A DNA stretch of 63,968 nt, filler included, from Circinaria calcarea (taxonomy: Eukaryota), in assembly GCA_051942165.1 (NCBI GenBank). It is 4 parts of 4 records of this genome, joined end to end, with 100 filler letters (N's around TTAATTAATTAA, not from the genome) between each part and the next. Parts side by side here need not be neighbours in the genome. Positions count along the whole stretch, not along the records: positions 1 to 16,359 come from JAVECS010000325.1; 3 more parts are not named here. The stretch is one strand, 5' to 3'. Made by a program: the position numbers and the translations under genes. The notes under the pieces are model-generated. The model was not told the DNA's origin and did not search any database. It saw only the letters and a program-made list of their open reading frames with translations. Below, piece after piece: positions 1,710 to 16,359 of the stretch (position 1 is the first letter of the stretch; every line of letters starts with the position of its first letter).

Positions 1710-4049
1710 CTATCCGTATAATTCCCCAGTCCGGATCCGCTGGTAAGGAATATTCACCTGCGCCTGACCGTTGTACCTATAACCCGAAGTAGCTGGACCC
1801 TCCGGAACGAGACTAACCAAGTCCGTCGACAAGTCCCCGTCATCATCGTCTCGGAAAACCAACTCCAAATGATTCGGCTTCCCCTCGCCGTTCCCATCTG
1901 TGCCCGTCGCTCGAATCTCCGCAGTTCGAGAATAGGTCGTCAGGTTGCCAATCCCAGCACACGTGTTCATCAGCGTCTTTGCTGCCGGTCTCGAGTTCTG
2001 GGCCAACACCAAGACCTCCGTAAAGGTATCCCAGCATCCGGAACCGTTACGCTTCCATACGGTCCAAATAAAACTAGCCAAGGCAATGAGAGCGTGGGCG
2101 AACAGCACGGCCATAGAAAGGTAGTCCGTTGTCGCGCTTGCGAGGAATGAATAGCCCGTTATGATCACGCTCATGGTAAGGGTGGTGAAATTGCCTTCTG
2201 GCTTCTGAACGGCATTGCCTCCACGAAGTAAACTGTATCTATGATTGGAGTCCCATTGTAAGCTGGCTAGTGTCCAACTCTGCGGGTCAGGAGAATCGGT
2301 GTTGTAGAGCCGGGAACTGCCGCTTCTTGATAAGCCGTCAGCGATAACAGTGCCAATGAGGTATTCGAGGAAGGTGGTCCTATTGGTGGAGCCTGGGTTT
2401 TCAGTGTTCCACTGCTCCAATTGCGCCTGGGCACTTGACTGAGGTAAACCGGTAATAATGCCAGCTGCAGATGCAATATCTTCAAGCGTACTTGGCTGCT
2501 CCATATTGAAGTCGTTCCCGGAATCAGGGACAGGTGGTGCTAGCTTTTTCAGCCATTCGTTATCCAGTATGAGGGACTTCCCGGCCGTGTTATTTGTACT
2601 TGCAGCCCACACACCTTCACTGACTTGAAAAGTCGTGCCTCCGTCCCACCAAGCACCGATGCTACAGGTGACGATTAACCGTTTACTTTCCATTGATAAC
2701 CACGGTGCTTCGAATATCATGCCGATACTTACGTCCCCAAGGTCTTTTGACAGCCCGGTCCAACTAATCCTAAGCTTCTCTGTCCGTGACTTCTTGAAGG
2801 CGCTGACTCCAACCATTCTCATGGCTCCTTGTTCACCTGACAACACTGGAAATGCAAGTGTAGTTTGGTTTTGCTTGACCACTTGGGCTTGGCTACACAG
2901 TGGTCGTACCACCGCGTTCTTAGTATTAACGTTTGCCTTTTGGGCGATCAAGTACCTGTAGTTTGCAACACTGCTCGCTGGAGAATAAGTCTGAGAATCA
3001 ACAGCGGCGAACCATTCATCTCTCAATATTTGCTGTAGAACGATCGTCGCTGCATGGGGGCTAGTCATAAATGTTCCCCCAGGTACGAGGCCGCGCACAC
3101 TTCCCTGTAGCTTTTGATTCGGAATGCGGCCCATGGGACTTTCCACGGTGAGGCCAAATAACTGTGCAGAAATTCCTATTCTGTAGGCGCCATTGGATGC
3201 TCGAGATCTATCGAAGGAGGTCGAAAAGGGTGTGGCCTTGGTAAAATGTGCCCGCAGTGCATAATAGCCCCCACTCGGACAGACTGCGTAAAGCGTCGCG
3301 TTCGGTAAACCGCAAACGTAGCTATCTTGAGCCAGAGACATGTTGGATGGCCAGTTGTCTTCTATATTACCAGGCAGGTAGAAATCCGAGCCTCCGGCCG
3401 GCCAGTCTTGTATCCTTGGTATGAGAAGCACCGCGCAAGATGGTCCCGCTGTTGCTGCAATAATCCCGGCTATGACGAGAAATCCAAAGAATGAGACCTT
3501 CCGAACAATAGACATGCGACACTGAAAGCTGCCAATGAAATCCGGAGACCAGAAATAGCTCAACTGGCTAAAGGAGAATGCAGATGCAAGGAGCCCGAGA
3601 GGTATTCCTTCCCCAAACATCAACTCGTCCCTTACAATCTGCGTAACGACCATCGCGAGGCTTGCGACTATCAGAAGTTCTTGGATCTTAGCTGCTATTT
3701 GAAGCAGAGCGAGATTGATGTTATCATTCGAAATGAATCCGGATAGGCTTCTTCCAACGAAGAAATGATGCAGATTAAGGACTAACAAGGCGGTCGAAGT
3801 GAGAACTGGTAGGAGATGGAAACTGAATCGACAGATTTGGGCCCATTTCGAATTGACCAAGACTGGCTTGGGGACCTCCCTAGTTCGCCGAATACGTTGC
3901 CAGCATTGTTGAACGCTCAAAGTCAGAACTTCGAGACCATGAGCTCGGAGGAACGTTTTCCACAACGATAAGAAGTTGACGCCAGTGGGTATCCGTCCTG
4001 GAGGTATATTCGTCCGGTGTTTATATCTTCTGCCAGTATCTCCCACCAT
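1710..4049 (-). CDS. uncharacterised multi-pass fungal membrane protein (~780 aa)
   Basis: Long intronless ORF; first ATG at 4049 (MVGDTG; the track start at 4166 is a non-ATG codon). N-terminal hydrophobic segments include LQIAAKIQELLIVASL, followed by a large N-glycosylation-site-rich middle and a C-terminal TM (DYLSMAVLFAHALIALASFIWTVW). Confidence 0.75.
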   Translation of the reverse strand: MVGDTGRRYKHRTNIPPGRIPTGVNFLSLWKTFLRAHGLEVLTLSVQQCWQRIRRTREVPKPVLVNSKWAQICRFSFHLLPVLTSTALLVLNLHHFFVGRSLSGFISNDNINLALLQIAAKIQELLIVASLAMVVTQIVRDELMFGEGIPLGLLASAFSFSQLSYFWSPDFIGSFQCRMSIVRKVSFFGFLVIAGIIAATAGPSCAVLLIPRIQDWPAGGSDFYLPGNIEDNWPSNMSLAQDSYVCGLPNATLYAVCPSGGYYALRAHFTKATPFSTSFDRSRASNGAYRIGISAQLFGLTVESPMGRIPNQKLQGSVRGLVPGGTFMTSPHAATIVLQQILRDEWFAAVDSQTYSPASSVANYRYLIAQKANVNTKNAVVRPLCSQAQVVKQNQTTLAFPVLSGEQGAMRMVGVSAFKKSRTEKLRISWTGLSKDLGDVSIGMIFEAPWLSMESKRLIVTCSIGAWWDGGTTFQVSEGVWAASTNNTAGKSLILDNEWLKKLAPPVPDSGNDFNMEQPSTLEDIASAAGIITGLPQSSAQAQLEQWNTENPGSTNRTTFLEYLIGTVIADGLSRSGSSRLYNTDSPDPQSWTLASLQWDSNHRYSLLRGGNAVQKPEGNFTTLTMSVIITGYSFLASATTDYLSMAVLFAHALIALASFIWTVWKRNGSGCWDTFTEVLVLAQNSRPAAKTLMNTCAGIGNLTTYSRTAEIRATGTDGNGEGKPNHLELVFRDDDDGDLSTDLVSLVPEGPATSGYRYNGQAQVNIPYQRIRTGELYG

Positions 4050-4953
4050 GATATCGCATGCGAGGTATTCTATACGTCCTAAGCTCGACGTCGTAAAATC
4101 TGTGGTGCTTGGGGTCCAAGGTATATACAGAGGCAGAAAAATCAAAAAACAGGAAACTGCAAGCAAGAAACTGATTTTATCGATAGCCGAAGGTTATCTG
4201 GACAAGATATGACGAAAGATGAGGGAGTTGAATGGCTGAGTTGTAGAAAGAGTAGGGTAGCACGAGGGCGACATAAGAAACGCAGACTCCAGTCCATTGC
4301 ATCCACAGCGCTAAAAGCAGGCTGACTTTATGCACAGGTATGGCGCAGCCACATGTAGTTTCATATTTCAAAGTGCGTCGGTTTGAGTATTTTGTAAATA
4401 TACAAATGGGGATAGTAACAAAGGCTTTGACCGATGTCTGGGCCGGGCGGGGACGAGATATTGTGTGTATAGACTTTTCATTTTCCAATGAAGCCGTACC
4501 ATACACGAAGAAATTGAAGCATAATTTCGATTCCGACTGCGAATCCGAGGGAGCATGACCACGCACTCTCCGTGTTCGAATATTCTTCCTCTGATAGTCA
4601 CTCTTGCACAACTTCAACTAAGCCTTGGTCATTTCTAATACTCCATCAACAACATCATACCATGAAAGACGGCTCGAGCCTAACGAGTACAACTTCAAGT
4701 TGCTACCGGCTGCGAGGATGTAAGTAATATAGAGGAGAACGGGTATCCGCCCACGATCTGCAGACGCCAAGTATTGTATTGCTCCCCTCAAGACTCAAAT
4801 CCGAGGGAGGAAGATCGGGTGAAAGACGGTGATTGGCCTTTCTAAATCATGGGGTTAGGTGACGGTATGGTACGGAGTAAAGCTCGCCCCGACCACATCG
4901 GAGCTAACACCACGCGCTAATGATAACGGCTGAGTGTGCTTGGGATCAATCTA

Positions 4954-5100
4954 TATCCCTTAAACCGTCGCTCAAGCGGACTGAACCGTGCGTTTCTTGC
5001 ACAGACCAGAAACTGGCCTGTGCTAATACAGCTGACCAATCCAAACCTTGTATCCAAGAAACGCACGGTTCAGTCCGCTTGAGCGACTGTTTAAGGGATA
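4954..5100. mobile_element. MITE, Tc1/mariner-type (44-bp TIRs, TA target-site duplication)
   Basis: 4954-4999 TA-TCCCTTAAACCGTCGCTCAAGCGGACTGAACCGTGCGTTTCTTG is the reverse complement of 5055-5100 with one mismatch. The element is 143 bp (4956-5098), flanked by TA on both sides, with no transposase. Confidence 0.85.
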
Positions 5101-6851: not shown

Positions 6852-6858
6852 TATATAT
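6852..6858 (+). promoter_or_regulatory. candidate TATA box of the Cys-rich peptide gene
   Basis: TATATAT about 125 bp upstream of the ATG at 6980, followed by a C/A-rich leader and a CAACC-ATG start context. Confidence 0.4.
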
Positions 6859-6979: not shown

Positions 6980-7512
6980 ATGCAATTCCACCACCTCGTT
7001 CTCCTTCTCACAGCCGCCGCAGTCCAGCTAGGCTATGTGGCAGCGCAGCATTGCACTCATCAAAGTGTTCGTCACCCCCAACACTCTCGCTTGAACACAA
7101 TACGCAGTTCTTCAATACAACTCTCCTTCACCAACCTTAGTTCTCCGCCTTCGCTAACTTTCTTCTCTCTATAGTCGTCACCTCCATTGACCCAACCCCT
7201 CTCACCCCTCCCCTTTTTACAACCCAAACTAACCTCGCCCCCCTTCCTCTACCAATAGGTTGCATAGACGTCTGCGGCTGCTGGCGAGCTAGGGTACCGT
7301 CATCCATTTCCTACGTCTCATTTCCCTCCCTTTTTTCCAATTCGAATCTCTCCAGTTCCTCCCCCTTTTTCCTTTGGCACCTCACCTTTCCTTCCCGATT
7401 CTGACCCTTTGATTCAAAAAGAGAGGGTCGCTGACGTTGGAAATAGTGCTATACCGATTGCTCGAGCGGACAGTGCCTTGGAAAATGCGATTGCTTCTTA
7501 TGCAACAACTAG
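6980..7512 (+). CDS. small secreted cysteine-rich peptide (61 aa, 10 Cys), 3 exons
   Basis: Exons 6980-7064, 7259-7293 and 7447-7512 total 186 nt and give MQFHHLVLLLTAAAVQLGYVAA-QHCTHQSCIDVCGCWRARCYTDCSSGQCLGKCDCFLCNN*. Branch sites: GCTAAC 7153, ACTAAC 7228, GCTGAC ~7430. TAG acceptors end at 7174, 7258 and 7446. Confidence 0.85.
7065..7258 (+). other. putative [D2,3] spliceosomal twin intron (stwintron)
   Basis: GT (7065-66), then an internal intron GTTCGT...GCTAAC...TAG (7067-7174), then TCGT...ACTAAC...TAG (7175-7258). Excising the internal intron rebuilds the donor GTTCGT. Confidence 0.7.
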
Positions 7513-9488
7513 GAGTAAAGGGCGGGAACGAGCTTTCGGAAAGGGGTCACGAAAGGCAGAGAGGATAGGAGAGATTTGGTAGGAGAAATGGGGAGTCAGT
7601 GATGGGGAAGGCAAAACAGGGCAAAGTGATGGGATTTCGTTCGATGGGTGGGGAGATTGTATAGTCAGATGCAAAAGCGAGGTAGCGCAATCATTTAACT
7701 TCAGCCCCCCCCGCCCCCCGACTCTTCTACTCGCTTAGAAGGCTACCATCCGAAAAATACCTCGATCAGGCATTTGAAGTAGACGAGGCTCTGCCCATGA
7801 ATCCTGTAATAGCTGCGACAACCCCCTCTGATGAAGAGCCACTTTCCTCCACGATGTTAACATGAACCCATACTGAGGGGTTGCAAGAAATACTTCACGG
7901 TGGTAACTTCCCAACCAAAGTCATTACCTCCGCAATGGAACAATATGCCTCTAGCAGTACAGGGGGGGGGGAAATGGGTCAAATGGCCCATTTCGCACAA
8001 AATTGATATGTACCGAGATAATCCAACCCCCCCCCCACCAGCTTTGAAATCTAACTAACGGATTTTTTAAACCTCCCACAATTTCATCATCGAACGAACC
8101 AAAGCCAATAATAAAAATTTTTTCTTTTTTTTTTTGGGCGCTTAAAAAGCCTGGTAGATAGATATCCATGATTTTTTGCTGCTTGTTTACGATCCCGAAG
8201 CTAAGATTCTCCGTATGAAAAAATCCGGGGCTGGGAAACACGTGTTCCAATTAGCCGAAGATGAGGTGGGTACCCTTAACCAGGCTCATGATTTCTTTTT
8301 GGGGGGGGAGGTTGGATATCACTTTCGATATTACCCACGTTGCCTTGGACGTTGTTATCTCCAACTTGCGTCGGGGTCACCCCCTCCCCATTTTTTTAAC
8401 CCTTTGCCAGGTCTTGGATCTGCAAGTGATGCATCTTAGGTTCCTCGAGGTCGTTTGAGCTAGTTTCTTTAGAGCCAAAAGCCACCCGGAGATTCTCGGT
8501 GATATATCTTGAGTCAAAGCAATGTCTCCAATGAGACCAGGGAAGCTTCGACTCCGTCCTCAGCTACCCAAGCCTGTACGCAAGCAACCTTGGAACCCAA
8601 GAATGAGCGGAACATCCCCAACGGTATACAGACTGGTTGGCAAAATTCCGCTGAAAGCAGGATCACAACATACCTCCCCAACCTTATGTAAAGATAGCTC
8701 CTCCGACGATGTTCCTCGGCCTTGCCCTGCCCTCCGCTACACTCCAAAAGGGAAAAAAGTGCAAGCTTTCCGGCGGGAAGCTATACGATTCCACAATATC
8801 TTCCCTACCAACTGATTCCGAGTCAAGGGAAATCTAGAGAGAACCTTCACACTCGTTGCTCTGGAAGGAGTTTTACGAGAGGGCTAGCCCAAACAACGAC
8901 GTTGGACTCGAGTCAGCGGTTTCGCTACCGTCTTCAGAGCACTGCAGCCGATCATTCTTGACTTTGCATCTTTCTCCAGAAACAGTTCCAGCAGTTGAAA
9001 AGAGATGGACAGAGCGATGTTTACAATCAGCTTTTGCAGATCTTCATCCGGAACCGCGATTCCCGACCATGCCGCAGTTTGCGTTTATCAGTCAAACAAA
9101 ACCCATGAAAACCATATATACTAATTCATATCTCAAGATTCTTAGTGCATACAAACGGTAGTTGCAACCCACCGTCAGCATGAATAAACTCGTGCGCTGT
9201 ACTCCGTGGGGTGGCGTAAAAAGCCTGAGTCTTGGCAACATGAGCTCTAAACGAAGCTCCCTTCATAACACATGACATATAGAGTAGGTCGTACCTTGAA
9301 TAACCAAACTCAGCTGCTTCCCCCAGTTGGATTTAACTTAGCGGACCTCGACAATTGAGGCACGAGTTGGAGTTGTTCCTTGCTATCCGATGATCAAGTT
9401 TGCCTTTCGAGGGCTAGGAGCTCTCAAGTATACTACTGTTTGTAACAATAGCCATACAAGATCCCAAAGCATCTCAGAAAAGCCTTGG

Positions 9489-10274
9489 TTATTTTGTCCC
9501 TCGAGATTTTGCTCTAGCTAAACCACTTCCCCTTACTCGCCCACCTCCTTTTACCGTTCCTCCCCGGTTTGATGCACCTCCGCCTCTGCTGAGTCCCGAA
9601 CTGGGTCGAGAATTGGAAGCCGGTGTAGTATATTTTGAAGTTGTTCGGGAGGATGTTGGGGGGTGATCAATAAAGGAGGTATCCGTCGTCCTGTGAAGCG
9701 GTCAGTAAGGCGTACAGCCTTTTCGTCTTTGGAATTTACATGAATGTTGCCTCGGGGTCGAATTCAGCACGGTGATTGGCGGCAGCAGCTGTTGCCGAAG
9801 CTAGAATGCCTATTAGTTGCGGCTGAGTGGACTGGGGATGTGATACGTACTTGACTGCTCGTCGTGCTGCCTCGCCCTCTTGAACGAGTCTAATATTGGC
9901 GCCTGGGGACACTCAACCAATGCTCTCCCGTAAGGACAATCGAAATGGCAACATAAGCTTACCTCTGGAAAGTCCACGCAGAAAGCATTCATGTTCAACC
10001 CGTAGAGGAAACTGGCAAAGTTCTCGCTGAATCTCGATAGACTCTCGTGCATCAGCTGGAGATGCATGAAATTGGCTTCGAGATCCGCCATTGAATCCGA
10101 GAACTCAGCGAAGGCTGGCTCCAAAGCGTCCAAGGGGAAGTCGGATGCAGCTTGAGGACCGCCGGTACCTGAGGTCTCCCGTAACGAGGTACGAGAGCTG
10201 GGGCGCAATGGCGTTGTGGGCCGTGATGAGGGACGCGGTCGCGACGTGGACCTCTTCACATTGGTAGCTTCCAT
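9489..10274 (-). CDS. DAM1: DASH/Dam1 kinetochore complex subunit Dam1
   Basis: RPTTPLRPSSR and LEPAFAEFSDSMADLEANFMHLQLMHESLSRFSENFASFLYGLNMNAFCVDFPE-AP are typical of Pezizomycotina Dam1. Three introns; G/R-rich tail ends at TAA 9489. Confidence 0.92.
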
Positions 10275-10572
10275 GATGAAGAGCAAGTCAAACCCGAGTC
10301 AGCACAATGATAACTCAATGAAAACCTAGGAGGATAACAAGTAACTAGAGATTAAGACGCTCCCCGTATACTTTCTCTATCCTTATCGCAGTGTTTACAA
10401 ACATGGTAGGGCTGGCACACAATAAGGGTGGGGGTCAGCTCGGGCTAAGCCTATTCCAAGGCGTCATTACTGCAGGTCCGTGATCGAGCCAAAGATCACT
10501 TTGGATGCGGTGTGACCTTAATCAGCGTGTACTAATAAAGTGTCTGGAGGAAGGTTACGCTTTACATCTTAC

Positions 10573-12449
<1,877 letters not shown>

Positions 12450-12659
12450 TGCGAGATATACGGATTTCACGGCACAACTGTACAGGCCTTACTGAGTTAG
12501 AATTTTCGGAATGGACTAGTTACGGACTCTGATTGGGGGATGCATTGCATGGGGGTTTCTAGCTTCGACGTGCATGGGCATGGATGGTTATTAGTATAGC
12601 ACAAGTCCTCTAGGGCTTCTCCAGATAGTCAAGCGTGGAAGCGTGGTCTGCAAATTACA

Positions 12660-13388
12660 TCACATCTTCGCCTTCATTTCATTGAACAATGCCTTTAGCT
12701 GATCCATCTCCGTCTTCTGCTGTACCCAGCCGATTCCTAGTCCTTCGGTCTGGTTGGGTTTGGGTATCTGATATGATATTGAGTTTATTAAACAGACACG
12801 GAGATGAACAAGGGTATGACAAACCATATGGAAATGGACCTGGTGAGGTTGTATTAGCCCTAATCAGCAAGGGTGGCGTAGGTATAGTCACTAACATGAT
12901 CAACTTCCTGGTGCGCCAACCTCCCATTGTTCTGCAGGATGTTGTAGTTCTCCACCCCGGCAGCTATGGCCACCCTCTTGGCAACCGGCTGCCCACATTA
13001 CATACACCCGTCAGTCCAGGCCGTCTCTCGTAAAATACCCCAGTCAAGACAAAACGAACCAGTATCTCCGTCAATTGATCATCCGGGATATCGGTAAGCT
13101 TGGCGCCGTGGTGCTTTGGTATCACGAGCTGCCCCCCAGGTGATGAAGCGATTAGCACGGAGTCGGAAGGCCGAGAGTGGGATGGGAATTGCGTACCGCG
13201 TGGCCTTTACTGAGGGGTTGGATGTCGAGGAAGGCGAAGACGCGCTCGCTTTCGAAGAGCTTGAAGGAGGGGATGTCGCCTGCTTTTGCGGTTAGGATGG
13301 ATAGGAGAAGGGGGTTGTATAGGATTTTGGGGGGACGGGGTTGTAGTGTACCTTTGATGATTTTACAGAATATACAGGCTGCAGCCAT
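12660..13388 (-). CDS. HNT1: HIT-family adenosine 5'-monophosphoramidase (Hint)
   Basis: MAAACIFCKIIKGDIPSFKLFE, AFLDIQPLSKGHALVIPKHH, LQNNGRLAHQEVDH|VHFHM|IPKP (HIT motif). Six exons, including a 15-nt microexon at 12825-12839. Confidence 0.93.
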
Positions 13389-14726
13389 TATGCGTGGATT
13401 GGTTTGTTGATCTGGGTGTTGTGAAAGTGGGGATGAATGGAGGGAATAGCGTGGGAAGCTGGGTCCAAAAGTATTTGCAATATATACTATTATAAGAAAA
13501 TTTTTATTTACGGAGTGGTACACAATACTGCAGAATCCATTTCTTGCCTTTTACCAGAGATGGCCGTGTTGTAACCATAATACTCCATTCATCAATCTTT
13601 GGAACCCTTCTCTACAAATGTAGATTATTTCGTTTTGCTGTTCGCGTATGTTCGAATCCATCTAGTTGCATTTATTTTTGAGCGAAGAAAACTATGCACG
13701 ATATTGCCAATAAATTTCTTATTTTTGGTACCCTTTTTACCTCACGTGCTCCAACCCCCTCTACATCTACATTTTCCGAGCTTCCATAACTCTCCTCTTC
13801 TCCTCCTCACTATAGACACTAGCGCCTTGCTTCAAAGCAGTCACCAATATAGGCAGAGACTTGTCGCCAAAATCCCCCGCGTTGCGCACCCGGTCCAGAT
13901 CGTCTGCAAACTCCAAGGTTACCTTTTTCAGGTAATAACTTTCAAAGTCTTGGGAACTGGTTTCTGGCTGTGGCTACCAGAGGGCTAAGTACTTGTACTC
14001 GCTATATGCAATTGGGATTAGGATATGAACACACCTCGGAGGTTGCAGCAGGTACTTTATCTTCTACCGCGGGCGCTGGTTGCTGTTTGGGTTCTTGGAC
14101 TGCCGGTTGGACCTTTTTCGACTTCCCCTACAGAACGATAGGACGGTTAGGTTGGAGTACTTTACGAGTTTGTCTCCAGCGGGAATGGGCATACCATCGC
14201 AGGACTCGTTTGGACGTTATCTCTGGGTTCCAAGGTGGGTTCCGAATGTGAGAAATCTTGTTTAGAGACCAAAGATGCTCGAGGTTTCCACGGCCAAGTT
14301 TTTTGCGAATCTAAGACAATAGAAATTATCTTACAAGTATAGATAGATCAGAGCCTAATCAATCATGTACAAGGCTATGAACTCAGTTTAACCAAGCCGT
14401 AACAATTCCCCGTCAAATTTGTCTATGTCCCTCCCAAAGCCCTCAGTTTCGTATCCTACCCTAGTCCCTACCACCTTACTCTATTATACGTAGTAATAGC
14501 TTTTGGACACACAGCCACGATGTAAACGAATTCACCAATCAATGTGGTAGCTTCCATTCACCATGCACATGGCTCACAGTCATGCGGTCGTCAGCAGTCC
14601 GGCGACGAAAGCCAAGGGGCTGAAGAATCATCTTCAGGCACCAATTCTATGTCCTGGATCAAAGGCCACGATACTGCTCGCTCTCACAACACTGCGCAGA
14701 GGCTACACAAGCTCTCCTGAATTACA

Positions 14727-16359
14727 ATGACTACAGCTATTGAGGCTCGATCTCTGTCGTCTGTTACAGCACTGGCAGCAAATCCACCTAGATATCCGCG
14801 TAACCCTACACATACCATCCAGCAGCCATTAGTGCTCTACATTGCTCGAGTACCGGGTAGTAGAGGTAGGTTCTGCACATAGCTAAGATGGCAAACCAGC
14901 TAACAAGATTATAGATGTATTCCTTTCCACCCTCAAGCCACGCGAAAAGGTCGTCACTGCCCAAGATATTGAGAGCTCTTTATACTACTTCCATGTTGAT
15001 GCCCCTTATGATGAAGACCTCCGACAAGCTTTAAGCTCTACCGAGGTTCAGCAGGAGAAGGTCAAGTTGGATGACAACAATGAAGGGCTCAGTGAGACTG
15101 CTCGGGAAGTTCAGAGGAAGCCGCTGCCCTCAAGCCCAAGATTAGACCTGGGTGATCACCCTGAACCTCCACCTAAAATCCTTCCAAACATTCAGGGTGT
15201 CTCGCAGGAGTTGAGGGACATCTCCAATGCAAGGCGAAAGCCGGTAGGTGGTGATAACAAACGGTCGATACCCCTACCGGAATCTACATCCTCAATGCCT
15301 GCCAGGAAGCTTCTAGGACCTCGTCCCTTACATTCTCGTCAAACCTCTGTTGACGCTGCCGCTTTGGGGGTCAATACCCGGAAAGAGAACGTGACTCTGC
15401 GAAGATGGTCCGAACAACCGCCAGCGTCTACCAAAACGCTAGGGTTACCCTCGACACCGGAACTTATGCATCAGGCAACTTCATTCAATACACCTGCCAA
15501 GGACTCCTCGACTTCCGGTGAAACGAGAAGATGTTCTCGGTCCGAGGAAAGACTGGTACGAAATCGGGATCTTTCCATCACACTGATCCGCCGTGATCCC
15601 ACTTCTGGCAGTCAGTGGAACGTGGGTAAGATTAGTGGTTCGTTTAATGGAACAAGAGATGAGGAATCTCCTGCTTCATACGATGCATCACCAGGAGCAG
15701 AAAAATGCGGCTTCTTAATTGAAATCACGACGCCAGGCTATGTCAAATTTATTGGGGTGGACAACGTGCTTCCTCTCTCTACATCGAACATAACGAACGT
15801 CCCAAAAACCTCAAAACTAACAGCATGCTTTCAGCGATATCTCTTAACAAAGTCTTCAAAAGCCATATCCGAGAATCAATCTGATAATAATAGTCTTAGA
15901 CCGAGCCTCGACCTACACCGCTCCAGCACACCGTCAGTTAATTCTCTCGGAATCCAAGGGCATTCATGTCGTACGTCTCTTGAGTCAAGTCCTGCTCATA
16001 TGAAAGCGTACACGTTTCTGAGTCCCTGGAACGGCGACTGCGAGTTTACCACCGGTATAGCAGGCCGCAGTCTCAAATGTAGACATACAATTCCATCGCC
16101 AGCCACAAGTCCAGGGAAAGGCTCGACCCCTGCAGTCACGGTTAGTGAGCTGCGCTTCAACCTCCCCGGCTCCAACATATTTAGCCCTGTCTCACCGAAA
16201 AGGCCCCCGTTATCAGCTGCCTTCCGCTCCTCCAAAGAGTCCTCTTCCTTGATCGACCACGGCATTAATCGTCCGCTCAAGCCTGTTGATTTTGACGATC
16301 AGAATGATGTCGAAGATAAGGAGAGCGCAAACCAAATAGTAAAGCTGGTTGATGGATAC
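14727..16359 (+). CDS. conserved fungal hypothetical protein, 3' truncated by linker
   Basis: ATG 14727 opens ...NPPRYPRNP...PLVLYIARVPGSR|DVFLSTLKPREKVVTAQDIESSLYYFHV (intron ~14866-14913). Later blocks ITLIRRDPTSGSQWNVGKI, YTFLSPWNGDCEFTTGIAGRSLKCRH and VSELRFNLP. Runs into Ns. Confidence 0.8.

What the first reader, a model, noticed from the sequence alone, without database searches (positions are those of the whole stretch)
6980..7512. Hidden secreted 39-aa peptide with 10 cysteines and a duplicated C-x4-C-x3-C-x-C motif
Seen: a 22-aa signal peptide ending VAA, then QHCTHQSCIDVCGCWRARCYTDCSSGQCLGKCDCFLCNN. Spacing is C-x4-C-x3-C-x-C-x4-C-x3-C-x4-C-x3-C-x-C-x2-C, so one module occurs twice. 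Established: plectasin-type defensins (6 Cys), PAF/AFP (6-8 Cys) and hydrophobins (8 Cys with CC pairs) have different patterns. Inference: a possibly undescribed 5-disulfide mini-protein (antimicrobial, effector or extracellular metal binder), with an N-terminal Gln that could cyclise to pyroglutamate. It sits in a gene-poor stretch near a MITE and decayed ORFs.
Basis: partly seen in the sequence, partly recalled or inferred. Interest (0 to 1): 0.75.

Follow-up and report, generated by a model that had tools for sequence, protein, structure and literature searches.

The report
Ten-cysteine secreted peptide, nested twin intron
A probably lichen-forming fungus carries a small gene for a secreted 39-residue peptide with ten cysteines and no relative found here; its first intron appears to be one intron nested inside the start signal of another, so the message must be cut in two ordered steps.

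Summary
The gene model holds: exons 6980-7064, 7259-7293 and 7447-7512 give a 61-aa precursor with a signal peptide and a 39-aa, 10-Cys mature part, spaced as reported. Comparable chance models reach at most 4 Cys; all ten Cys codons are TGC. No homologue was found, but only single exon frames could be searched, there was no RNA run to test splicing, and the fold could not be predicted. It fits a rare [D2,3] stwintron: removing 7067-7174 rebuilds the donor GTTCGT for the outer intron ending at 7258. The outer intron resembles intron 2 (2 of 2000 shuffles, 0 of 6026 genome tiles), and both lie inside a C-x4-C-x3-C unit. The peptide is near neutral, so it is most likely a five-disulfide, target-binding secreted effector-like peptide. 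A defensin-derived core is possible but statistically unsupported. Orphan secreted peptides are common in lichen fungi, so interest is moderate.

The parts
6852..6858 (+). TATA-like element, about 125 nt before the ATG
   Evidence: sequence; function inferred
6980..7064 (+). Exon 1 coding part: 22-aa signal peptide (6980-7045) and the first mature residues, with Cys3; ends in phase 1
   Evidence: hydropathy peak 2.7 over 9 residues
7065..7258 (+). Intervening sequence 1 (194 nt), predicted [D2,3] stwintron
   Evidence: only match of the full nested architecture in the window, 0.1 expected per simulated window
7067..7174 (+). Internal intron, 108 nt: donor GTTCGT, branch GCTAAC 7153-7158, acceptor TAG 7172-7174
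   Evidence: GTTCGT enriched as a donor in this genome, 6 against 1.8 expected
7175..7258 (+). 3' part of the external intron (86 nt with the GT at 7065-7066): rebuilt donor GTTCGT, branch ACTAAC 7228-7233, acceptor TAG 7256-7258
   Evidence: its first 75 nt resemble intron 2
7259..7293 (+). Exon 2, 35 nt: Cys8, Cys12, Cys14
7294..7446 (+). Intron 2, 153 nt, phase 0: weak donor GTACCG, branch GCTGAC 7430-7435, acceptor TAG 7444-7446
   Evidence: donor not enriched, 2 against 1.9
7447..7512 (+). Exon 3 coding part: 21 aa with six Cys, then the stop codon
4954..5100 (.). MITE with 46-nt terminal inverted repeats, 1.9 kb upstream; context only
   Evidence: 76 matches in the genome, both strands counted

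Best explanation
A real, lineage-specific three-exon gene of a probably lichen-forming ascomycete. Shown in sequence: promoter-like element, signal peptide, three branch-site/acceptor pairs, open spliced frame. Inferred: the spliceosome first removes 7067-7174, which rebuilds a GTTCGT donor, then removes the outer intron, and removes intron 2. The precursor enters the ER, loses 22 residues and forms five disulfides (about 4.3 kDa, perhaps with N-terminal pyroglutamate). The peptide is exported as a compact, protease-resistant body of short C-x3-C helices. Being near neutral, with exposed Trp, Tyr, Phe, Arg and Lys, it most likely binds a specific protein or wall target of the algal partner or of thallus microbes, as an effector-like or signalling peptide, and does not lyse membranes. 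The gene grew by tandem duplication of an intron-bearing C-x4-C-x3-C unit, and the first intron copy later gained an inner intron.
For: Gene. Stwintron: one match in the window at exactly the 194 nt that the frame requires; GTTCGT behaves as a donor here (6 vs 1.8, P 0.01) and GTGTTC does not (2 vs 2.2); removing only the inner intron gives a 56-aa product with 1 Cys; the type is defined in PMC5639578 and PMC7138796. Duplication: outer intron against intron 2 scores 46, reached by 2 of 2000 dinucleotide shuffles, 0 of 6026 genome tiles and 0 of 107 pyrimidine-rich tiles; a 2-gap Cys unit three times occurs in 1.2% of random placements. Charge -0.2 at pH 7, GRAVY -0.22. Lineage: most named Dam1 hits are lichen-forming fungi. 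Lichen SSPs are mostly genus- or species-specific and induced early in symbiosis (PMC9232553); secreted-protein genes lie near transposons in Peltigera (bioRxiv 2026.06.16.732702).
Against: No transcript, homologue or structure supports any step. The intron 2 donor GTACCG is not enriched. A looser [D2,3] pattern is at chance genome-wide (96 matches, control 108), and crude donor counts did not separate GTTCGT, GTGTTC and GTACCG from their controls. The donor test rests on 336 anchors and small counts. Inner and outer introns share only their first 10 nt (764 of 2000 shuffles reach the score). Exons show no DNA similarity to each other. A 101-aa model using the good donor at 7067 with an AG at 7140 is also open, though it has no consensus branch site. 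The function is inferred from class, not from any match.
Confidence: 0.5

Rival explanations
1. An extended fungal defensin-like peptide (CS-alpha-beta core at Cys14/19/23/28/32/34, or from Cys3/8/12 to Cys28/32/34, plus two extra disulfides) acting as an antimicrobial or ion-channel blocker.
For: The framework order C..C-x3-C..C..C-x-C with Gly two before the fourth Cys can be drawn in 5 ways (framework from PMC5234102). All 6 PDB sequences matched by exon 3 at E up to 10 are scorpion potassium-channel toxins; the best aligns without gaps over 20 residues, including G-K-C. A fungal defensin with channel-blocking activity exists (licosin, PMC13199095).
Against: Best E-value 1.0; no Pfam family; the two-row profile finds nothing in the PDB. 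The order appears in 46% of random 10-Cys placements and the Gly has P 0.29. In the toxin register the final C-x-C is absent; in the complete register the last loop is only 3 residues. Not cationic; the neutral or anionic fDLP tested in PMC5234102 was inactive.
Confidence: 0.2
2. A non-functional or unexpressed relic: a once-real gene whose splicing has decayed.
For: Single copy, no homologue; weak donor at 7294 and poor literal donor at 7065; a MITE lies 1.9 kb upstream.
Against: Intact frame with an even Cys count, three consensus branch/acceptor pairs, TATA-like element, good start context, 10 of 10 TGC codons.
Confidence: 0.13
3. An extracellular metal binder using Cys thiols and His2/His5, a secreted metallothionein-like peptide.
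For: 10 Cys and 2 His in 39 residues with C-x-C and C-x2-C motifs; the only paper matching any of five spacing strings is on fungal metallothioneins.
Against: That paper's consensus differs (C-x4-C-x-C-x3-C-x-C-x4-C-x-C) and its text never mentions a signal peptide or secretion. ER passage oxidises Cys, and aromatic residues are atypical of metallothioneins (own knowledge).
Confidence: 0.08
4. Same peptide, but intervening sequence 1 is removed in one step from the non-consensus donor GTGTTC, or a longer isoform (89 or 101 aa) with a Pro-rich spacer is the real product.
For: These frames are open; one-step mis-splicing of stwintrons is reported (PMC12403724 abstract).
Against: It needs a donor that is not enriched and the skipping of a nearer good donor, branch site and acceptor, against intron definition (PMC7138796); it leaves the rebuilt GTTCGT unexplained.
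Confidence: 0.15

Closest known systems
[D2,3] stwintrons of Pezizomycotina, e.g. in the biotin gene bioDA (PMC5639578)
   Same: An inner U2 intron splits the outer donor between nucleotides 2 and 3; two ordered splicing steps restore the frame.
   Different: Here it sits in an orphan peptide gene; the inner and rebuilt outer donors share their first 10 nt; the outer intron resembles the next intron of the same gene and lies 2 nt off its phase. Not shown in RNA.
Fungal defensin-like peptides, especially the Zytrisins and lambda-Zytrisins of Zymoseptoria (PMC5234102) and the families in PMC4165938
   Same: Signal peptide directly followed by a Cys-rich peptide of about 40 aa, two introns, non-cationic character, C-x3-C and C-x-C motifs, Gly-x-Cys.
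   Different: Ten Cys instead of six (or eight); intron positions differ (not at the signal-peptide end, not in the fourth Cys codon); very short loops; no sequence match; single copy.
Scorpion CS-alpha-beta potassium-channel toxins (TcoKIK, PDB 7lgl; alpha-KTx 3 and 4)
   Same: Exon 3 aligns without gaps as C-x3-C-x8-C-x4-C with G-K-C.
   Different: E-value 1.0; the terminal C-x-C of that register is absent; two more Cys lie inside the aligned stretch.
Lineage-specific small secreted proteins of lichen-forming fungi (PMC9232553)
   Same: Small, secreted, no homologue found, near a transposon.
   Different: Far smaller than most and split into exons of 85, 35 and 66 nt, so likely to be missed by annotation; expression unknown.
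Plant alpha-hairpinins and other C-x3-C helical peptides (recalled, no call)
   Same: Repeated C-x3-C motifs that staple short helices.
   Different: Three such motifs with only 4-6 residues between them and four more Cys; no test was possible.

Membership tests
[D2,3] stwintron | Internal intron with its own donor, branch site and acceptor | tested here: met
   7067-7174: GTTCGT, GCTAAC, TAG; donor enriched 6 vs 1.8
[D2,3] stwintron | Its excision rebuilds a usable donor split between nucleotides 2 and 3 | tested here: met
   GT at 7065-7066 plus TCGT at 7175-7178 gives the same hexamer GTTCGT; 0.3% of 4-mers would give it, 3-8% would give a consensus-like donor
[D2,3] stwintron | External intron has its own branch site and acceptor, and the two-step product restores the frame | tested here: met
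   ACTAAC 7228, TAG 7258; the 194-nt removal gives the 61-aa frame, while the other paths give 39-76 aa with 1-4 Cys
[D2,3] stwintron | Splicing intermediate seen in RNA | not testable with these tools
   no RNA holder listed
CS-alpha-beta fungal defensin-like peptide | Order C..C-x3-C..C..C-x-C | tested here: inconclusive
   present but also in 46% of random placements
CS-alpha-beta fungal defensin-like peptide | Gly two residues before the fourth Cys | tested here: inconclusive
   Gly26 before Cys28; chance 0.29
CS-alpha-beta fungal defensin-like peptide | Six or eight Cys (three to four disulfides) | tested here: not met
   ten Cys; three to four pairs per PMC13199095
CS-alpha-beta fungal defensin-like peptide | Sequence or profile match to a defensin or toxin family | tested here: not met
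   0 Pfam families for 3 exon frames; PDB best E 1.0, none for the profile; the spliced peptide itself was not scanned
CS-alpha-beta fungal defensin-like peptide | Helix-strand fold with disulfides 1-4, 2-5, 3-6 | not testable with these tools
   the fold predictor takes only frames that the DNA gives letter for letter, so the spliced peptide was not folded
Cationic antimicrobial peptide | Net positive charge | tested here: not met
   -0.2 at pH 7, +2.1 at pH 5; 3 Lys/Arg, 3 Asp, 2 His
Fungal metallothionein | HeptaCys spacing of PMC12508003; cytosolic, no signal peptide | tested here: not met
   spacing differs; signal peptide present
Hydrophobin | Eight Cys with two adjacent CC pairs (recalled definition) | tested here: not met
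   ten Cys, no CC pair

The most novel reading that the evidence does not exclude
A new five-disulfide peptide scaffold, built by duplicating an intron-bearing C-x4-C-x3-C unit, that the fungus uses on its algal partner or thallus microbes. Its gene also preserves a [D2,3] stwintron made from a copy of its own intron, two nucleotides off the phase of the sister intron. That would be a snapshot of how a stwintron arises and how an intron can shift by two bases; the published stwintron route explains only one-base shifts (PMC5587772).
Probability: 0.2. Interest if true: 0.72.

Novelty: new variant of a known kind. Interest (0 to 1): 0.45.

Why it matters
If confirmed, it adds a compact disulfide-rich scaffold from a group whose symbiosis effectors are almost uncharacterised, and it is small enough to synthesise and test. 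It also shows why such genes are missed: exons of 35-85 nt and a first intron that standard gene finders cannot parse. [D2,3] stwintrons are rarely met (PMC12403724), and one whose outer intron has a recognisable sister in the same gene makes the origin of the nesting testable by comparing related species.

Tried and rejected
RNA: no RNA holder listed, so no reads were laid; this is no evidence either way. Protein homologues: word-index searches with the exon 1 frame (35-112 aa searched) and with an alignment of the exon 2 frame and exon 3 (11-74 aa) found no candidate; the profile search of 1.84 billion representatives gave 2 hits, both long tandem-repeat proteins without the Cys spacing; the Atlas gave no usable hit for residues 1-29. 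All used exon frames, partly with intron read-through, so sensitivity was low. Paralogues in the own genome: DNA and protein searches found only the locus; Cys-spacing patterns gave 92, 2, 4 and 17 matches. I inspected 3 of the 92 by hand, the rest from the listing as repeats; 1 of 1, 3 of 3 and 12 of 16 non-self matches of the other three; all were antisense, repeat or unrelated frames, one a ferredoxin motif. Phage tblastn gave 2 records at E 10. Genome-wide counts of donor and [D2,3] patterns did not exceed controls. An [A2,3]-type path using the GT at 7174 was rejected: it removes 193 nt and breaks the frame. A micro-exon after 7174 gave no 9- or 10-Cys frame. Literature: five spacing strings matched 1 paper, on metallothioneins; three further searches gave 1, 0 and 3 unrelated papers. 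The library lacks most subscription journals, and I opened no supplements, which may list such peptides. Earlier notes of this scan had nothing on this place, sequence or motif.

Full report
Observation. The region holds an ATG at 6980 in the context CCAACC-ATG, a TATA-like element at 6852-6858, pyrimidine-rich intervening stretches and a purine-rich stretch after the stop. Joining 6980-7064, 7259-7293 and 7447-7512 gives 61 aa. The signal peptide was judged from hydropathy (peak 2.7) and the V-A-A end; SignalP was not available.

Is it chance? A loose search for signal-like starts with up to two introns and 50-90 aa gave 8 models in the window and 44 in 400 kb of the same genome; this locus has 10 Cys and no other more than 4. 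The filter was set after seeing the locus, and its best model here was an 89-aa variant. All ten Cys codons are TGC, against 33 of 72 in 14 long ORFs of the window. I put the gene at about 85% real. Of 66 open splice models 16 have ten Cys, so the Cys count is robust but the linker after Cys3 depends on the splice reading.

Lineage. The neighbouring genes include Dam1 and a CRAL/TRIO protein. Among the 120 Dam1 hits listed, most named ones come from lichen-forming fungi such as Lignoscripta, Lasallia, Umbilicaria and Xylographa (their class, Lecanoromycetes, is from my own knowledge). I take the organism to be a lichen-forming ascomycete.

The first intron is nested. The 194 nt after it hold two branch sites (7153, 7228) and two branch-linked acceptors (7174, 7258), and a better donor, GTTCGT, starts two bases in. 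Removing 7067-7174 (108 nt) joins GT to TCGT and rebuilds GTTCGT; the 86-nt outer intron then ends at 7258. This is the [D2,3] stwintron as defined in PMC5639578 (part 1 of 6 read) and PMC7138796 (part 1 of 5 read). A pattern for the whole architecture matches once in the window, here, at exactly 194 nt, against 0.1 per simulated window over 30 simulations. In 463 kb of the genome (336 branch-acceptor anchors) GTTCGT is enriched upstream of anchors (6 against 1.8) and GTGTTC is not (2 against 2.2). Removing only the inner intron gives 56 aa with one Cys; the path through the GT at 7174 breaks the frame. Against: counts are small; a looser half-pattern is at chance across the genome (96 against 108); crude donor counts did not exceed controls; no RNA could be examined. 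Given a real gene, I put the stwintron at about 75%. The authors of PMC12403724 (passages) say types other than [D1,2] were rarely met. Earlier notes of this scan list 83 stwintron findings in at least 17 genomes, so nesting as such is not rare in these data.

How the gene was built. The first 75 nt of the outer intron align with the first 75 nt of intron 2: score 46, reached by 2 of 2000 dinucleotide shuffles, 0 of 6026 genome tiles and 0 of the 107 pyrimidine-rich ones (with only the first 60 nt, 1 tile reaches it). Both introns lie at the same place in a C-x4-C-x3-C unit: intron 2 directly before the Cys19 codon, the stwintron two bases before the Cys8 codon. This suggests a duplication with an 11-residue period (inference). 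The inner intron shares only its first 10 nt with the outer one; an 8-nt direct repeat opens both halves. Whether the inner intron came from a copy of the intron or from donor duplication, the route proposed in PMC7138796, cannot be told from one genome. The published stwintron route for intron shifts covers one base only (PMC5587772, passages); the two-base offset here is a lead, not a result. The weak donor GTACCG of intron 2 (2 against 1.9) remains the softest point of the model.

Relatives. None was found, in the own genome, in protein collections, in Pfam or by Cys patterns in metagenome, prokaryote and viral contigs, which returned microsatellites and antisense frames. Every search used single exon frames or patterns and no fungal genome collection was at hand, so this does not show that the family is absent.

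What it resembles. Exon 3 matched 6 PDB sequences at E up to 10, all scorpion potassium-channel toxins; the best, at E 1.0, aligns without gaps through G-K-C but lacks the final C-x-C of that register. The defensin framework of PMC5234102 (parts 1-3 of 4 read) can be drawn in five ways with Gly26 before Cys28, but the order appears in 46% of random placements and the Gly has P 0.29. Membership is therefore not shown, and the Cys count is off. The fDLP tables of PMC4165938 (part 1 of 3 read) give sizes of 33-60 aa but no spacing to compare. The metallothionein spacing in PMC12508003 (one passage) differs. Hydrophobin and alpha-hairpinin definitions are recalled.

Mechanism. Shown: anatomy, charge (-0.2 at pH 7), mass (about 4.3 kDa), no CC pair. 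Inferred: ER entry, five disulfides, possible pyroglutamate, short stapled helices. A neutral, rigid peptide of this size is more likely to bind a target than to lyse membranes. Lichen fungi carry 107-207 small secreted proteins, mostly genus- or species-specific and induced early in symbiosis (PMC9232553, passages), and in Peltigera secreted-protein genes lie near transposons (bioRxiv 2026.06.16.732702, passages); a MITE with dozens of copies lies 1.9 kb upstream here. I favour an effector-like or signalling role toward the photobiont or thallus microbes (overall 0.5), then a defensin-like antimicrobial or channel blocker (0.2; precedent in PMC13199095, passages), a different splice route or isoform (0.15), a relic (0.13) and a metal binder (0.08); the splice rival overlaps with the others.

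Verdict. A probably real orphan peptide gene of a common class, with a Cys framework that five literature searches did not find in print and a rare predicted intron arrangement. No supplements were opened and most subscription journals are outside the library. New variant of a known kind; interest 0.45.

Noticed in passing
window 4954-5100: MITE of 147 nt with 46-nt terminal inverted repeats, 98% complementary; 76 matches in the genome counting both strands, other copies 70-93% identical.
   Followed up: partly
window 1710-4193 (-): Single long ORF (827 aa stop to stop) with several hydrophobic segments and no Pfam family at E 0.01.
   Followed up: no
window 8021-8317 and 7960-8040: A 16-nt inverted repeat pair 265 nt apart, rich in C and G runs, in the stretch downstream of the peptide gene; possibly a second small element.
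   Followed up: no
window 14887-16359 (+): Long Ser/Pro-rich ORF without a Pfam family, running into the contig end.
   Followed up: no
window 9813-13550: Dam1, a CRAL/TRIO gene and a HIT-like gene lie next to the peptide's gene-poor stretch; useful anchors for a synteny search (HIT name from recall).
   Followed up: partly
L286 and L315 (viral contigs): Two real-looking Cys-rich viral ORFs of 214 and at least 285 aa carry a C-x3-C-x2-G-x-C-x3-C-x-C-x2-C stretch like exon 3; no other similarity seen.
   Followed up: no
L033 (G000:C2779:1-600): Frames that look like a decayed Helitron helicase (recognised from recall) near a chance Cys-pattern match.
   Followed up: no
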